This document shows positions 58,298-59,957 of a stretch of 64,000 bases of DNA, in pieces. Position numbers and translations under genes: made by a program. The notes beneath the pieces are model-generated. The model was not told where the DNA came from and did no database searches. It saw nothing but the letters and a program-made list of their open reading frames with translations. This stretch comes from a virus: IMG/VR virus record IMGVR_UViG_3300045988_187372, one strand, 5' to 3'. Positions within the stretch are counted from its first letter, which is position 1; each line of letters opens with the position of its first letter.

Positions 58298-58441
58298 TTA
58301 TTTATTAATTTTTTTCTGATGTAAATTATTTATAAAAGTGATTGCCTCAGGAGGCAATGGAGAAAATCTATATACTTTTTTCATTTCTTCTTCGCAGCAT
58401 ATACCTGCTCTTTTTAATTCATATATATTTTTCTTTTTCAT
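58298..58441 (-). CDS. small protein (47 aa, not in ORF track)
   Basis: MKKKNIYELKRAGICCEEEMKKVYRFSPLPPEAITFINNLHQKKINK; strong RBS AAGGAGG; terminator 58262-58288. Confidence 0.4.
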   Translation of the reverse strand: MKKKNIYELKRAGICCEEEMKKVYRFSPLPPEAITFINNLHQKKINK

Positions 58442-58453
58442 AAAATTTCCTCC

Positions 58454-59740
58454 TTACTGAGCTGCTGTAAATTCAACAAAATATTCTATAGTACTTTGCT
58501 GATCCTGATATACAATAATTTCATCATTACATAAACTATGGCCCGCATGAGCAAAAGTACAATGAGCGCCAGGACATCTCTGTTGTAAAACATTATAAGT
58601 TAAATCACTTTCAGCAGATGTTACATCATATGTTTTACCAGTAGCCACTTTGAAAATGCCTAAATATCCAATTGCTTCACTACCATGAGTCCAATAAGAA
58701 CCGGAGCTTGAAGTATATCCCATCGATTTTTTTGCCTTATTAGCAAAATATGTACCTAATCCAAACATCTTTCCATTAGTTACAACTCCAACTGGATTTA
58801 TTGTTAAACCATTAGTTATAATGGACCAGAAGTTTTCTGATCTTGAACCATGAAATAAATGAGATATTCCATTATTTTCATCACTTAAATTTTCTTTAGC
58901 ACAATATTCATTGAAAGCCTTTTCGGTCTTTTTATTAATGATTCTCCAAGCATTTTTATATTGCTTTGCATTTTCTCCCATAAGCTTCTTGATTTTAGTC
59001 TCTTCTTCGTCAGATACAGGTCTCCATTCAAGTCCATAGGCCTGAAGAACTGTTGGCATAGTGTCATATTTAGCTAAATTACTATTAGATCTTACCTGAG
59101 AATACACAATATCAAACAGTTCCTGCTCTTTGTCAATGATATCAACAAATTCAATCTTTCTTTTAGCCAAATGTTTAGATAAATTATCCATTCTTCTAGG
59201 AATTGCAGCATATAATACTTTTAATTTATTATTAAACTCTGCAATTGACATAGAATCATGGTTCTTAGCTAATTCAATCAAAATCGAATTACCATATTCA
59301 AGCATCTCATCTGAAATATCTTCAACTGAAGTTGAATAATTATCTGAAATAACCTTATTAGCGTATGAAAGCAGTTTTGTTATAATAGAATCAACAGAGA
59401 AAATTCCAGTCTGTGCATATGTACCGCCATTAAAACTTAAACCTTTTTTTGTAATCTTTTTTTTCTCCATTTTTTGAGTCTTTGTAAGCAACCAACCTCT
59501 ATTTACCTTAGACAAATAAAAAGAATCCCAATTAGTCATAGGAAGTGAATATGTCCTTGGCCTGTTCCTTCCTATCCTGATTCCAATTCTACCTTCAGTA
59601 ACATCAAAAACATTCTTATTATTGGCATTAACCTGCATAATAATCTGTTGATTATTACCTTTACCTGTAGCTGTTTCTGCAACATAATTAAGTTCCAAAT
59701 ATTCATGATTTGGTATTGTATTTATATCTGCCTGTTTCAT
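58454..59740 (-). CDS. PARP-like ADP-ribosyltransferase (WGR-like N-term + catalytic domain)
   Basis: LFHGSRSENFWSIITNGL...GKMFGLGTYFA...NDEIIVY parallels PARP1 LLWHGSRTTNFAGILSQGL...[11 protein letters not shown]...YNEYIVY (H-Y-E triad present). Confidence 0.8.
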   Translation of the reverse strand: MKQADINTIPNHEYLELNYVAETATGKGNNQQIIMQVNANNKNVFDVTEGRIGIRIGRNRPRTYSLPMTNWDSFYLSKVNRGWLLTKTQKMEKKKITKKGLSFNGGTYAQTGIFSVDSIITKLLSYANKVISDNYSTSVEDISDEMLEYGNSILIELAKNHDSMSIAEFNNKLKVLYAAIPRRMDNLSKHLAKRKIEFVDIIDKEQELFDIVYSQVRSNSNLAKYDTMPTVLQAYGLEWRPVSDEEETKIKKLMGENAKQYKNAWRIINKKTEKAFNEYCAKENLSDENNGISHLFHGSRSENFWSIITNGLTINPVGVVTNGKMFGLGTYFANKAKKSMGYTSSSGSYWTHGSEAIGYLGIFKVATGKTYDVTSAESDLTYNVLQQRCPGAHCTFAHAGHSLCNDEIIVYQDQQSTIEYFVEFTAAQ

Positions 59741-59756
59741 AAATCCTCCTTATATA

Positions 59757-59957
59757 TTACGCAATTTTATCTTTAAATTTTTCGAAAGCTTCTTTTGTAA
59801 ATTGTGTATACATCCCAGAATCATTTCTTACTGATACGAAATCGCCAAATGCTATACATTCATATGTATGCCCTTTTGTCCAGCATCCATAGAATGATTC
59901 ATTAGTATCAGATAAAGTTTTATTTGCCTGCACATTAAAAACAATATGTTCTATCAT
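59757..59957 (-). CDS. hypothetical protein
   Basis: 66-aa ORF first in operon with PARP; promoter variant ATATGTCAGAAAAAT 59993-60009. Confidence 0.45.
   Translation of the reverse strand: MIEHIVFNVQANKTLSDTNESFYGCWTKGHTYECIAFGDFVSVRNDSGMYTQFTKEAFEKFKDKIA

What the first reader, a model, noticed from the sequence alone, without database searches (positions are those of the whole stretch)
58298..59957. PARP-family ADP-ribosyltransferase operon
The product of 58454..59740 aligns motif-for-motif with the eukaryotic PARP catalytic core: the H-G-S motif, GxxFGxGxYFA and the catalytic Glu in NDEIIVY. It also has a possible WGR-like N-terminal segment (EGRIGIRIGRN). The gene is flanked by two small genes (59757..59957 and the unannotated 47-aa 58298..58441) under one promoter and one terminator. 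PARP homologues are sporadic in bacteria and phages. An intact H-Y-E triad suggests poly- or mono-ADP-ribosylation of host or phage targets, possibly DNA-damage or defence related.
Basis: partly seen in the sequence, partly recalled or inferred. Interest (0 to 1): 0.75.

Follow-up and report, generated by a model that had tools for sequence, protein, structure and literature searches.

The report
PARP enzyme gene on giant gut plasmid-like element
This is a genuine bacterial relative of the human DNA-damage enzyme PARP1, carried with two tiny partner genes on a very large mobile DNA element from gut bacteria; enzymes of this kind are already known in bacteria and phages, so it is a solid but fairly ordinary find.

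Summary
All three ORFs lie on the minus strand. The 428-aa product of 58454..59740 matches Pfam PARP (68 bits, cut-off 26.7). A confident AlphaFold model (pLDDT 90) aligns over its full length with the WGR-plus-catalytic chains of human PARP1. The family profile aligns in one stretch with PARP1 WGR, helical domain and ART (E 6e-20). H297, Y331 and E407, plus the K338/S339/Y342 NAD-site residues, are invariant in 93 of 93 distinct relatives.

Bacterial and phage PARPs are a described family, and public annotation already calls this protein a PARP. I therefore file it as a new member of a known kind.

New details:
- The host element is a very large low-GC mobile element of the human gut (contigs up to 831 kb) with a relaxase and a coupling protein. 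It is not a demonstrable phage.
- This subclade has an acidic residue where the Trp of "WGR" sits, plus a basic loop insertion.
- It lacks the Macro-domain gene that precedes PARP in most of the more distant, mainly phage-contig relatives.
- A 46-56-aa micro-protein gene follows PARP down to 62% PARP identity. The upstream 66-aa gene is conserved only in the nearest lineage.

Biological role and targets remain inferred.

The parts
59757..59957 (-). 66-aa gene, first in the unit. It has its own RBS, and its stop lies 16 nt before the PARP start. The single-sequence model gives a small beta-meander plus C-terminal helix at low confidence.
   Evidence: ORF. Homologue directly upstream of PARP only in L101 (95 aa; shared YGxWTK...DFVS(V/I)RNDxGMYTQF). 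pN 0.35 against pS 0.75. No Pfam, PHROG or PADLOC hit. AF2 pLDDT 56.
58454..59740 (-). PARP-family ADP-ribosyltransferase, 428 aa, with WGR-like, helical (HD) and ART domains.
59414..59701 (-). N-terminal beta-rich WGR-like domain (residues 14-109). The motif is E49-G50-R51 in place of W-G-R, followed by a basic insertion G57-R-x-(K/R)-P-(K/R).
   Evidence: Secondary structure. Profile alignment to the PARP1 WGR. Foldseek full-length match to the PARP1 WGR-CAT chains 4dqy_C and 4opx_C. Residue statistics.
59069..59401 (-). Helical domain (residues 114-224), equivalent to the PARP regulatory/autoinhibitory HD.
   Evidence: Helices 114-134, 144-163, 166-179 and 195-224. Aligned to the PARP1 HD within one profile stretch, with EQELFD against DNLLDI and L208 nearly invariant. 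No Pfam PF02877 hit.
58457..59032 (-). ART catalytic domain (residues 237-428). Catalytic and NAD-site residues: H297-G298-S299, Y331-F332-A333, K338, S339, Y342, E407.
   Evidence: Pfam PF00644 at 68 bits. These residues are invariant in 93/93 distinct relatives, except S299 (91/93), F332 (F/Y) and A333 (90/93). E407 aligns with PARP1 E988.
58298..58441 (-). 47-aa micro-protein gene, last in the unit. Its start lies 12 nt after the PARP stop and it has its own RBS.
   Evidence: Homologues (46-56 aa; motifs KKKxI(Y/F)ELxR(A/T)G and (P)LPPE) lie directly after PARP in lineages at 79, 76, 74.5 and 62% PARP identity, and 1.3 kb downstream in one at 77.6%. pN 0.24 against pS 0.75. No family hit.
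58258..58290 (-). Intrinsic-terminator-like hairpin (14-bp stem, 5-nt loop, T-rich tail) closing the unit.
   Evidence: 217 nt separate the 47-aa gene from the next gene, the HD-GYP gene at 56866..58080.
60004..60031 (-). Weak candidate promoter (TTTACA-16-TATTTT) in the 126-nt gap upstream of the 66-aa gene.
   Evidence: 9 of 12 matches. Not above chance, so tentative only.

Best explanation
Gene 58454..59740 (minus strand) encodes an active-looking PARP-type (diphtheria-toxin-like, H-Y-E) ADP-ribosyltransferase. It has the complete three-domain core of the DNA-dependent PARP1/2/3 clade: a WGR-like nucleic-acid-sensing domain, a helical autoinhibitory domain and the ART domain.

It is the middle gene of a compact three-gene unit on a very large, low-GC mobile element of human-gut Firmicutes. 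That element also carries a Mob_Pre relaxase, a VirD4-type coupling protein and its own replication and recombination genes.

Most likely mechanism (inferred from PARP1/2/3 and from the two bacterial PARPs tested in vitro): the WGR-like domain binds a nucleic-acid structure such as a break, nick or end. This relieves HD autoinhibition and opens the NAD+ site. The enzyme then transfers ADP-ribose, single units or chains, onto itself and onto DNA-transaction proteins of the host or the element.

The conserved 46-56-aa protein encoded directly downstream is probably a lineage-specific partner of this enzyme, acting as a regulator, cofactor or substrate.

Shown here: family, architecture, catalytic residues, operon anatomy, conservation and mobile-element context. 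Inferred: activity, activating ligand, polymer versus monomer, targets and the role of the small proteins.
For: - Pfam PARP at 68 bits against a 26.7 cut-off; 59/59 relatives hit it.
- AF2 model with pLDDT 90 and pTM 0.86, showing a beta N-domain, a helical domain and an ART domain.
- Best Foldseek PDB matches are the PARP1 WGR-CAT chains 4opx_C and 4dqy_C, and PARP2 on DNA breaks: about 480 aligned columns, TM 0.6, E 1e-19.
- The family profile aligns in one stretch (26-370) with PARP1 WGR+HD+ART at E 6e-20. GR of the WGR motif, the HGS, the GxGxYFA and the catalytic Glu strand are all in register.
- H, Y, E, K338, S339 and Y342 are invariant in 93/93 distinct relatives.
- Tight gene spacing, RBSs and a terminator.
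- The micro-protein is conserved after PARP down to 62% PARP identity and is under purifying selection.
- Mobile-element context: relaxase, T4SS coupling protein, NERD, Lar, orphan MTase, DUF5688. Relatives sit next to LPD1, LPD16, YodL and DUF3846 genes; the literature describes YodL and LPD16 as specific to polyvalent proteins of conjugative elements (PMC5512222).
- Herpetosiphon and C. difficile CD160 PARPs make PAR in vitro with activated DNA (PMC5966428 and PMC8120803).
Against: - No biochemical data exist for this clade.
- Pfam does not recognise its WGR or HD.
- The Trp or aromatic residue of the WGR motif stacks on the 5'-terminal nucleotide in PARP1 (from memory of the 4DQY paper). 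It is acidic here in 51/59 subclade members, so the activating ligand may differ.
- The loop before the catalytic Glu is about 25 residues shorter than in PARP1, and PARP1 Y986 corresponds to Asn/Met here. PARP3 and PARP4 show that H-Y-E does not guarantee polymer synthesis.
- No ADP-ribose eraser (Macro, PARG, ARH) was found among the window ORFs scanned.
- The small genes are absent from many relatives, so they are not essential partners.
Confidence: 0.75

Rival explanations
1. The physiological substrate is nucleic acid rather than protein. Like PARP2/3 and PARP1 in vitro, the enzyme would ADP-ribosylate terminal phosphates at DNA (or RNA) breaks. This would cap or mark ends of the element's or the host's DNA during replication, recombination or transfer.
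For: - It has the WGR-HD-ART core of the PARPs known to modify DNA ends (established knowledge; nucleic-acid ADP-ribosylation reviewed in PMC8883491, listed).
- The element is rich in DNA-end-processing genes: RecJ, UvrD x2, 5'-3' exonuclease, RecA.
- A UvrD-like helicase sits next to PARP in L104, L108, L006, L009 and the Butyrivibrio megaplasmid pCY360.
Against: - Nothing in the sequence discriminates protein from DNA acceptors.
- The helicase linkage is broken in the window (27 kb away). It may only reflect a shared backbone of related elements.
Confidence: 0.15
2. It is a defence or abortive-infection cargo of the element. Invading phage DNA ends would hyper-activate the PARP, which drains NAD+ and stops the infected cell.
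For: - Mobile elements often carry defence cargo.
- PARP hyperactivation depletes NAD+ in eukaryotes (established knowledge).
- This subclade has no linked eraser.
- NERD, Lar and a weak ABC-3C CTD4 hit lie nearby.
Against: - No PADLOC model matches PARP or its neighbours.
- The sister subclade is mainly on IMG/VR contigs that pair PARP with a Macro eraser, which points to an invader-side tool.
- Neighbours such as Lar and an orphan methylase are counter-defence rather than defence genes.
Confidence: 0.1
3. It is a toxin-antitoxin or addiction module. PARP would be the toxin, and one of the small proteins (66 aa upstream or 47 aa downstream) would neutralise it, stabilising the giant element.
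For: - Tightly coupled small genes flank an ART.
- ART toxins with cognate antidotes are known (DarTG, with a macrodomain antitoxin; PMC9967889, listed).
- In the sister subclade a Macro gene occupies the upstream slot.
Against: - The upstream 66-aa gene is conserved only in the window lineage and L101.
- L104/L105 and all relatives at 56% identity or below carry PARP with neither small gene nor Macro. PARP alone is therefore tolerated.
- The HD domain already provides autoinhibition.
Confidence: 0.07
4. It is an inactive or decayed PARP-like remnant, or a chance resemblance.
For: None beyond the lack of Pfam WGR and HD hits.
Against: - It is a full-length ORF with all catalytic and NAD-site residues invariant across 93 sequences.
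- pN 0.17 against pS 0.76 relative to a 76% relative.
- The exact protein recurs on many contigs.
Confidence: 0.02

Closest known systems
Human PARP1/PARP2/PARP3 (DNA-dependent PARPs; WGR-HD-ART core; e.g. PDB 4DQY, 4OPX, 6X0L)
   Same: - Same three-domain order and folds.
- H862/Y896/E988 correspond to H297/Y331/E407.
- G863, S864, F897, A898, K903, S904 and Y907 equivalents are conserved.
- 38% identity across the NAD+ site.
   Different: - No zinc fingers, BRCT or N-terminal tail.
- Only about 18-20% identity overall.
- The Trp of WGR is replaced by Glu, followed by a basic insertion.
- The loop before the catalytic Glu is about 25 residues shorter, and Y986 corresponds to Asn.
- Pfam WGR and PARP_reg models do not detect the N-terminal two domains.
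Characterised bacterial PARPs: Herpetosiphon aurantiacus HaPARP and Clostridioides difficile CD160 CdPARP; 'Clade 1' Clostridiales PARPs of Garcia-Saura et al. 2018 (PMC5966428)
   Same: - Stand-alone WGR-helical-ART proteins of about 400-450 aa in bacteria.
- Clostridiales members were described as lacking a Pfam-defined PARP_reg while showing a helical domain in models. The same is seen here.
   Different: - The published bacterial set has Tyr, Trp or Phe at the first WGR position. This subclade has Glu or Asp, and even the WGR escapes Pfam.
- HaPARP and CdPARP organisms encode a PARG. No eraser was found in this window.
- This clade has not been tested biochemically.
- I did not have the HaPARP or CdPARP sequences, so identity to them was not measured.
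Butyrivibrio proteoclasticus B316 PARP (BpPARP) on the 361-kb megaplasmid pCY360
   Same: - A Lachnospiraceae megaplasmid-borne PARP.
- 31% identity over residues 163-425, E 3e-32.
- Its neighbouring SF1 helicase is 36% identical to the window's 973-aa UvrD-like protein.
   Different: - 509 aa with an unrelated, longer N-terminus.
- No small flanking genes are annotated.
Phage PARP / 'PART' family (PHROG 23333; Cellulophaga phage phi4:1 'poly(ADP-ribose) polymerase'; jumbo-phage PARPs; PMC9503650, PMC7824862)
   Same: - Full-length match to phrog_23333, residues 20-424, E 1.5e-30.
- 28% identity to Cellulophaga phage PARPs over 84% of the length.
- 133 relatives in IMG/VR.
   Different: - These relatives (35-41% identity) keep an aromatic residue in the WGR motif and lack the loop insertion.
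- In 62-63 of 75 distinct sequences a Macro-domain gene lies upstream on the same strand, usually directly adjacent (median gap about 115 nt). The window subclade has none in 18 of 18.

Membership tests
PARP / ARTD catalytic family (Pfam PF00644) | ART domain scoring above the curated Pfam threshold | tested here: met
   68 bits against a gathering score of 26.7, E 1e-18, residues 249-380. 59/59 aligned relatives hit PF00644.
PARP / ARTD catalytic family (Pfam PF00644) | H-Y-E catalytic triad | tested here: met
   H297, Y331 and E407 align with PARP1 H862, Y896 and E988. They are invariant in 59/59 and 93/93 sequences.
PARP / ARTD catalytic family (Pfam PF00644) | NAD+-pocket residues (G863, S864, F897, A898, K903, S904, Y907 equivalents) | tested here: met
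   G298, K338, S339 and Y342 are present in 93/93 sequences. S299 is present in 91/93, F332 is F or Y, and A333 is present in 90/93.
PARP / ARTD catalytic family (Pfam PF00644) | NAD+-dependent ADP-ribosyl transfer | not testable with these tools
   Needs an enzyme assay.
DNA-dependent PARP clade (PARP1/2/3-type WGR-HD-ART) | Helical regulatory domain (HD / PARP_reg) immediately N-terminal to the ART | tested here: met
   Helices spanning residues 114-224 at high pLDDT. Aligned to the PARP1 HD within a single profile stretch and in Foldseek full-length matches. Caveat: Pfam PF02877 gives no hit at E<=1 in any of the 59 members.
DNA-dependent PARP clade (PARP1/2/3-type WGR-HD-ART) | WGR domain (fold) | tested here: met
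   The profile aligns from position 26 with PARP1 residues 564 onward, including GRVG. Best structural matches are WGR-CAT chains over about 480 columns. Caveat: Pfam PF05406 gives no hit.
DNA-dependent PARP clade (PARP1/2/3-type WGR-HD-ART) | Aromatic residue (W/Y/F) at the first position of the W-G-R motif | tested here: not met
   E49 in the query. Glu or Asp in 51/59 subclade members. More distant relatives have Y, F or W.
DNA-dependent PARP clade (PARP1/2/3-type WGR-HD-ART) | Activation by DNA breaks; synthesis of poly(ADP-ribose) | not testable with these tools
   Only HaPARP and CdPARP have been shown to do this in vitro (PMC5966428).
PAR writer-eraser pair (PARP with linked Macro / PARG / ARH) | Eraser gene adjacent to or near the PARP gene | tested here: not met
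   The Macro HMM built from relatives' neighbours finds nothing in the window or in any subclade-A locus. No Macro, PARG or ARH Pfam hit among the window ORFs scanned; six ORFs of 90-125 aa and smaller ones were not scanned against Pfam. The pair is present in 62-63 of 75 subclade-B relatives; the neighbour matches Pfam Macro at 24.1 bits against a 22 cut-off.
ART toxin-antitoxin module (DarTG-like logic) | Cognate small or antidote gene consistently linked to the ART gene | tested here: not met
   The 66-aa gene occurs only in the window lineage and L101. The 47-aa gene is absent from L104/L105 and from all relatives at 56% identity or below.
Known anti-phage defence systems (PADLOC-DB v2) | Match of PARP or flanking genes to a defence-system protein model | tested here: not met
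   No hit for PARP, either small ORF, or five further neighbours. Only a marginal HD-domain/Cas3 hit for the HD-GYP protein.
Leading-region establishment / anti-defence genes of conjugative elements (Samuel et al. 2024, PMC11541004) | Location on the side of oriT that enters the recipient first | tested here: inconclusive
   A candidate oriT palindrome at 62667..62684 lies just upstream of the Mob_Pre gene, 3 kb from PARP. In the MOBV prototype pMV158 the transferred strand is the mob coding strand and the nick is upstream of mob (PMC5863519). By analogy PARP would be on the trailing side. The nick site and strand here are unknown.

The most novel reading that the evidence does not exclude
The window's subclade may be a rewired PARP module. 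It has swapped the DNA-end-stacking aromatic residue of the WGR motif for an acidic one and gained a basic loop. It has lost the Macro eraser that accompanies most of its more distant, mainly phage-contig relatives. It has acquired a dedicated 46-56-aa micro-protein (KKKxIYELxRAG...PLPPE) encoded immediately downstream. In this reading the enzyme responds to a different trigger than a DNA break, for example an RNA, a single-strand/double-strand junction or a protein. The micro-protein would be its obligate cofactor, specificity switch or substrate, making it a bacterial functional analogue of an HPF1-type PARP accessory factor. The giant gut mobile element would use the module during its establishment or in conflicts with other elements.
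Probability: 0.15. Interest if true: 0.65.

Novelty: new member of a known kind. Interest (0 to 1): 0.35.

Why it matters
What prokaryotic and mobile-element PARPs do in vivo is still unknown. Only two have been tested, both only in vitro, and no physiological target is known (PMC8120803).

This gene belongs to an abundant human-gut element. The exact flanking proteins were seen on at least 1000 contigs. The family splits cleanly into two forms:
- a mainly phage-contig form with an aromatic WGR residue and a Macro eraser gene upstream;
- a plasmid-like form without an eraser, with an acidic WGR residue, often followed by a micro-protein gene.

That contrast gives a concrete handle for experiments on PARP activation and regulation in bacteria, and on the evolutionary origin of eukaryotic DNA-damage PARPs. 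By itself, another bacterial PARP homologue would not surprise a specialist.

Tried and rejected
- **Pfam WGR (PF05406) and PARP_reg (PF02877):** no hit at E<=1 in the query or in 59 relatives. The domains had to be shown by profile-to-PDB and fold comparison instead.
- **NCBIfam:** nothing relevant.
- **PADLOC:** no defence-system match.
- **Linked eraser:** none found in the window.
- **Small-ORF homologues by tblastn in 100 loci:** only identical copies. A small HMM search then found the micro-protein in closer relatives.
- **Big-database searches with the 66-aa and 47-aa proteins:** only near-identical clusters.
- **AF2 of the 66-aa protein alone:** pLDDT 56, too poor for a fold search, so none was run.
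- **Complex prediction of PARP with the micro-protein:** not possible with the single-chain tool, and not attempted.
- **'Leading-region anti-defence gene' idea:** weakened. The Nature 2024 paper does not mention PARP or ADP-ribosylation. The pMV158 analogy puts PARP on the trailing side.
- **PLSDB and INPHARED:** no close relative of the element. Best PARP hits are 28-31% identical.
- **tRNA and Rfam scans of the window:** empty.
- **The CPGAHC motif before the catalytic strand as a metal site:** the Cys residues are not conserved enough (35/59 and 48/59), so I dropped the idea.
- **Phage identity of the window:** not supported, despite a near-identical (99.8% in PARP) IMG/VR contig. No structural gene was seen, while a relaxase and a coupling protein are present.
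Full report
**1. What is in the sequence**

- a 66-aa ORF at 59757..59957;
- a 428-aa ORF at 58454..59740;
- a 47-aa ORF at 58298..58441.

They are packed with 16-nt and 12-nt gaps, and each is preceded by a GGAGG-type ribosome-binding site. A terminator-like hairpin with a 14-bp stem and a T-rich tail lies at 58290..58258. A further 217 nt separate it from the next gene. The upstream 126-nt gap holds only a weak promoter match (60031..60004). Promoter-like hits in the region are not above the shuffled expectation. 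"One terminator" is therefore supported, and "one promoter" is plausible but unproven.

**2. Identity of the 428-aa protein**

Sequence evidence:
- Pfam PF00644 (PARP catalytic domain) scores 68 bits against a cut-off of 26.7.
- phmmer against PDB sequences finds human PARP1 first (E 1.4e-8). LFHGSRS aligns to LWHGSRT, and GKMFGLGTYFANKAKKSMGY to [20 protein letters not shown].
- An alignment of 59 full-length homologues (48-82% identity) has H297, G298, S299, Y331, S339, Y342 and E407 invariant.
- In a wider set of 93 distinct sequences taken from fetched loci (down to about 28% identity), H, Y, E, K338, S339 and Y342 are present in 93 of 93.

Structure evidence:
- The AlphaFold2 model built on that alignment is confident (mean pLDDT 90, pTM 0.86).
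- It shows a beta-rich N-terminal domain (residues 14-109), an all-helical domain (114-224) and the ART domain (237-428).
- Foldseek against the PDB ranks first the PARP1 chains that contain WGR plus the catalytic region bound to a DNA break (7S6H, 4OPX, 4DQY), followed by PARP2. About 480 columns align, TM is about 0.6, and E is about 1e-19.

Profile evidence:
- The family profile aligns in a single stretch (positions 26-370) with PARP1 residues 564-935, that is WGR, HD and ART, at E 6e-20.
- The strand "LLNDEVIVYQ" lies over "LLYNEYIVYD", which contains E988.
- Matches to PARP4 and tankyrase run through that strand at E 7e-10 and 5e-9.

Pfam's WGR and PARP_reg models nonetheless find nothing in this protein or in any of the 59 relatives at E<=1.

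**3. How common the family is, and what is already known**

- The word-indexed search found 1629 clusters at 90% identity.
- The exhaustive HMMER search found 454 clusters at 50% identity with E<=1e-30 and 861 with E<=1e-10.
- IMG/VR holds 133 relatives.
- PHROG 23333 matches over residues 20-424 (E 1.5e-30).
- JGI/IMG already names this exact protein "poly [ADP-ribose] polymerase".

Bacterial PARPs with WGR, a helical domain and ART have been catalogued. Clostridiales members were noted to lack a Pfam-defined PARP_reg while showing a helical domain in models. HaPARP and CdPARP make PAR in vitro with activated DNA (PMC5966428 and PMC8120803). Phage "PART/PARP" enzymes are listed among the most frequent viral ART families (PMC9503650; PMC7824862). 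No paper I found assigns a physiological role or target.

**4. Context**

The window is AT-rich (about 28% GC) and almost entirely co-oriented.

Genes around the PARP unit:
- a Mob_Pre relaxase at 62740..63945;
- just beyond the window, a NERD protein and a 982-aa VirD4/TraG-type coupling protein;
- downstream, an HD-GYP protein, a GGDEF protein and a PBP1A.

Elsewhere the window encodes:
- a Lar-like protein and an orphan N6/N4 methylase;
- DUF5688, a sigma-70 factor and RecA;
- RecJ, two UvrD-like helicases and a 5'-3' exonuclease;
- a primase-type zinc finger, a guanylate/dNMP kinase and a split Pol III alpha.

There are no tRNAs and no Rfam hits. Beyond the left end lie more than 25 small co-oriented ORFs without any Pfam hit.

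Identical or near-identical copies occur in human-gut metagenome contigs of 190-389 kb. Members of the same protein clusters occur on contigs up to 831 kb. The exact 66-aa and 47-aa proteins were seen on at least 1000 contigs. One near-identical 95-kb contig (99.8% identity in PARP) is filed in IMG/VR. I saw no phage structural gene.

I therefore describe the host as a very large mobile or extrachromosomal-type element with conjugation genes, of unresolved nature. A precedent is the 361-kb Butyrivibrio proteoclasticus megaplasmid pCY360. Its PARP is 31% identical over HD and ART. Its adjacent SF1 helicase is 36% identical to the window's 973-aa helicase.

**5. The small genes**

Neither small gene has a detectable homologue next to PARP in the 94 more distant loci. 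A small HMM search shows more for the downstream micro-protein. Its motifs are KKKxI(Y/F)ELxR(A/T)G and (P)LPPE.
- It lies directly after PARP in lineages at 79, 76, 74.5 and 62% PARP identity.
- It lies 1.3 kb downstream in one lineage at 77.6%.
- It is missing in L104/L105 (65%), where PARP is followed at once by a terminator.
- It is missing in all relatives at 56% identity or below.

The upstream 66-aa protein has a homologue only in L101 (95 aa).

Both are under purifying selection. pN is 0.24 and 0.35, against pS of about 0.75, which is saturated. PARP itself gives 0.17 against 0.76. They match no Pfam, PHROG, NCBIfam or PADLOC family. A single-sequence model of the 66-aa protein was too poor to use.

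The compact unit is thus real, but it is a lineage-specific elaboration rather than a family-wide operon.

**6. Two subclades**

Cross-tabulating the 93 distinct sequences gives a clean split.

Subclade A (44% identity or more to the query; 18 distinct sequences, and the 59 of alignment A1):
- The Trp position of WGR is non-aromatic, and usually acidic (Glu or Asp in 51 of 59).
- A conserved basic insertion G57-R-x-(K/R)-P-(K/R) follows.
- There is no Macro neighbour (0 of 18).
- The neighbourhoods are of plasmid or conjugative type: Mob_Pre, LPD1, LPD16, DUF5688, YodL/DUF3846, DUF3849, DUF4942, YAcAr, RelB/ParE, Lar and a UvrD-like helicase. YodL and LPD16 are described as specific to polyvalent proteins of conjugative elements (PMC5512222).

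Subclade B (41% identity or less, mostly IMG/VR contigs of 20-290 kb):
- The aromatic residue is kept (Y, F or W), and there is no insertion.
- In 62-63 of 75 distinct sequences a gene of about 145 aa lies upstream on the same strand, usually directly adjacent (median gap about 115 nt). It matches Pfam Macro (24.1 bits against a 22 cut-off).
- The surroundings are DnaE, NrdD, NAD-dependent and ATP-dependent ligases, and ThyX.

In relatives L104 and L108 the order is UvrD-like helicase, an unknown 335-aa protein ("F4"), then PARP. The window has the helicase (28056..30977, 69% identical to L104's) and two F4 paralogues (22167..23216 and 20883..22034), but 27-37 kb from PARP. These elements share a backbone that has been rearranged here. 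An HD_5 gene follows PARP in the window, L102, L104 and L115.

**7. Mechanism**

Shown here: a complete and conserved NAD+-binding and catalytic site, the WGR-like, HD and ART architecture, and a mobile-element setting rich in DNA-transaction genes.

Inferred from PARP1/2/3 and from HaPARP and CdPARP:
- ligand binding by the WGR-like domain releases HD autoinhibition;
- the enzyme then ADP-ribosylates itself and other proteins, or nucleic-acid ends.

Polymer synthesis cannot be predicted. H-Y-E is necessary but not sufficient, as PARP3 and PARP4 show. The pre-catalytic loop is shorter than in PARP1, and the Y986 equivalent is Asn or Met. The acidic substitution at the Trp position raises the possibility of a different activating ligand. 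That Trp stacks on the 5'-terminal nucleotide in the PARP1-DNA structure; I state this from memory of the 4DQY paper and did not check it here.

The absence of an eraser in subclade A means one of three things: the mark is not meant to be reversed by the element, host enzymes remove it, or the micro-protein takes over a regulatory role.

**8. Alternatives**

I considered four rivals:
- nucleic-acid-end modification;
- an NAD+-depleting defence effector;
- a toxin-antitoxin module;
- an inactive remnant.

The report sections give the evidence for and against each. I also considered a "leading-region establishment gene". An 18-nt perfect palindrome (62667..62684) lies 55 nt upstream of the relaxase gene and is a plausible oriT. 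In the MOBV prototype pMV158, however, the transferred strand is the mob coding strand and the nick lies upstream of mob (PMC5863519). By analogy PARP would be among the last genes to enter. That idea is weakened but not excluded.

**9. Verdict**

This is a genuine PARP1-like enzyme of a family already described in bacteria and phages, so it is a new member of a known kind. The points worth following up are the subclade-specific WGR change, the missing Macro partner, the conserved micro-protein and the unusual giant gut element that carries them. Interest is moderate to low (0.35).

Noticed in passing
window 18222..20771 (-) and 10817..12502 (-): DNA polymerase III alpha is encoded in two separate ORFs about 5.7 kb apart. 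The N-part is 849 aa (PHP, NTPase, start of the finger). The C-part is 561 aa (finger, HhH, OB). A 5'-3' exonuclease, an RlaP-like nucleotidyltransferase and other genes lie between them. Cluster members of 252, 613 and 849 aa exist in public data.
   Followed up: partly
L010-L100 (e.g. L026 7576..8019 upstream of PARP at 8001..9230): In 62-63 of 75 distinct, more distant PARP relatives, a Macro-domain gene of about 145 aa lies upstream of PARP on the same strand, usually directly adjacent (median gap about 115 nt). These relatives are mostly on IMG/VR contigs. This looks like a writer-eraser pair. The window's subclade lacks it entirely.
   Followed up: yes
window 62667..62684: An 18-nt perfect palindrome, AAGTGTATATATACACTT, lies 55 nt upstream of the Mob_Pre relaxase gene (62740..63945). 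It is a candidate origin of transfer.
   Followed up: partly
window 55591..58080 (-) and 52980..55313 (-): A membrane HD-GYP phosphodiesterase, a membrane GGDEF cyclase and a PBP1A sit on the mobile element directly downstream of the PARP unit. An HD_5 gene also follows PARP in relatives L102, L104 and L115.
   Followed up: partly
window 35527..38061 (-): An 844-aa protein with no Pfam hit is about 24% identical to 'TerD family' and 'RING finger family 4' proteins of megaplasmids (Bacillus, C. perfringens, Variovorax, Vibrio). Several of the same Variovorax and Vibrio replicons also carry WGR-PARP genes.
   Followed up: no
window 28056..30977, 22167..23216 and 20883..22034 (all -): A 973-aa UvrD-like helicase and two paralogues of an unknown protein of about 335-380 aa ('F4') are homologues of the two genes that directly precede PARP in relatives L104 and L108. 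The linkage is broken in the window.
   Followed up: partly
whole window; L127 (beyond the left end); L126 (beyond the right end): The host element is odd. It has about 28% GC and nearly all genes on one strand, with no tRNA or Rfam hit in 64 kb. Long runs of small ORFs have no Pfam hits. It carries its own sigma-70, RecA, RecJ and replisome parts, plus a relaxase and a T4SS coupling protein. It occurs on contigs up to 831 kb in human-gut data, and one contig is filed as viral in IMG/VR.
   Followed up: partly
window 60084..60482 (+): This is the only plus-strand gene between PARP and the relaxase. The 132-aa product has a sub-threshold match to CTD4 of ABC-three-component systems (17.4 bits against a 27.6 cut-off).
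   Followed up: no
window 51858..52529 (-): A 223-aa ORF has a sub-threshold match to the bacterial CdiA-CT RNase A toxin domain (24.3 bits against a 27 cut-off).
   Followed up: no
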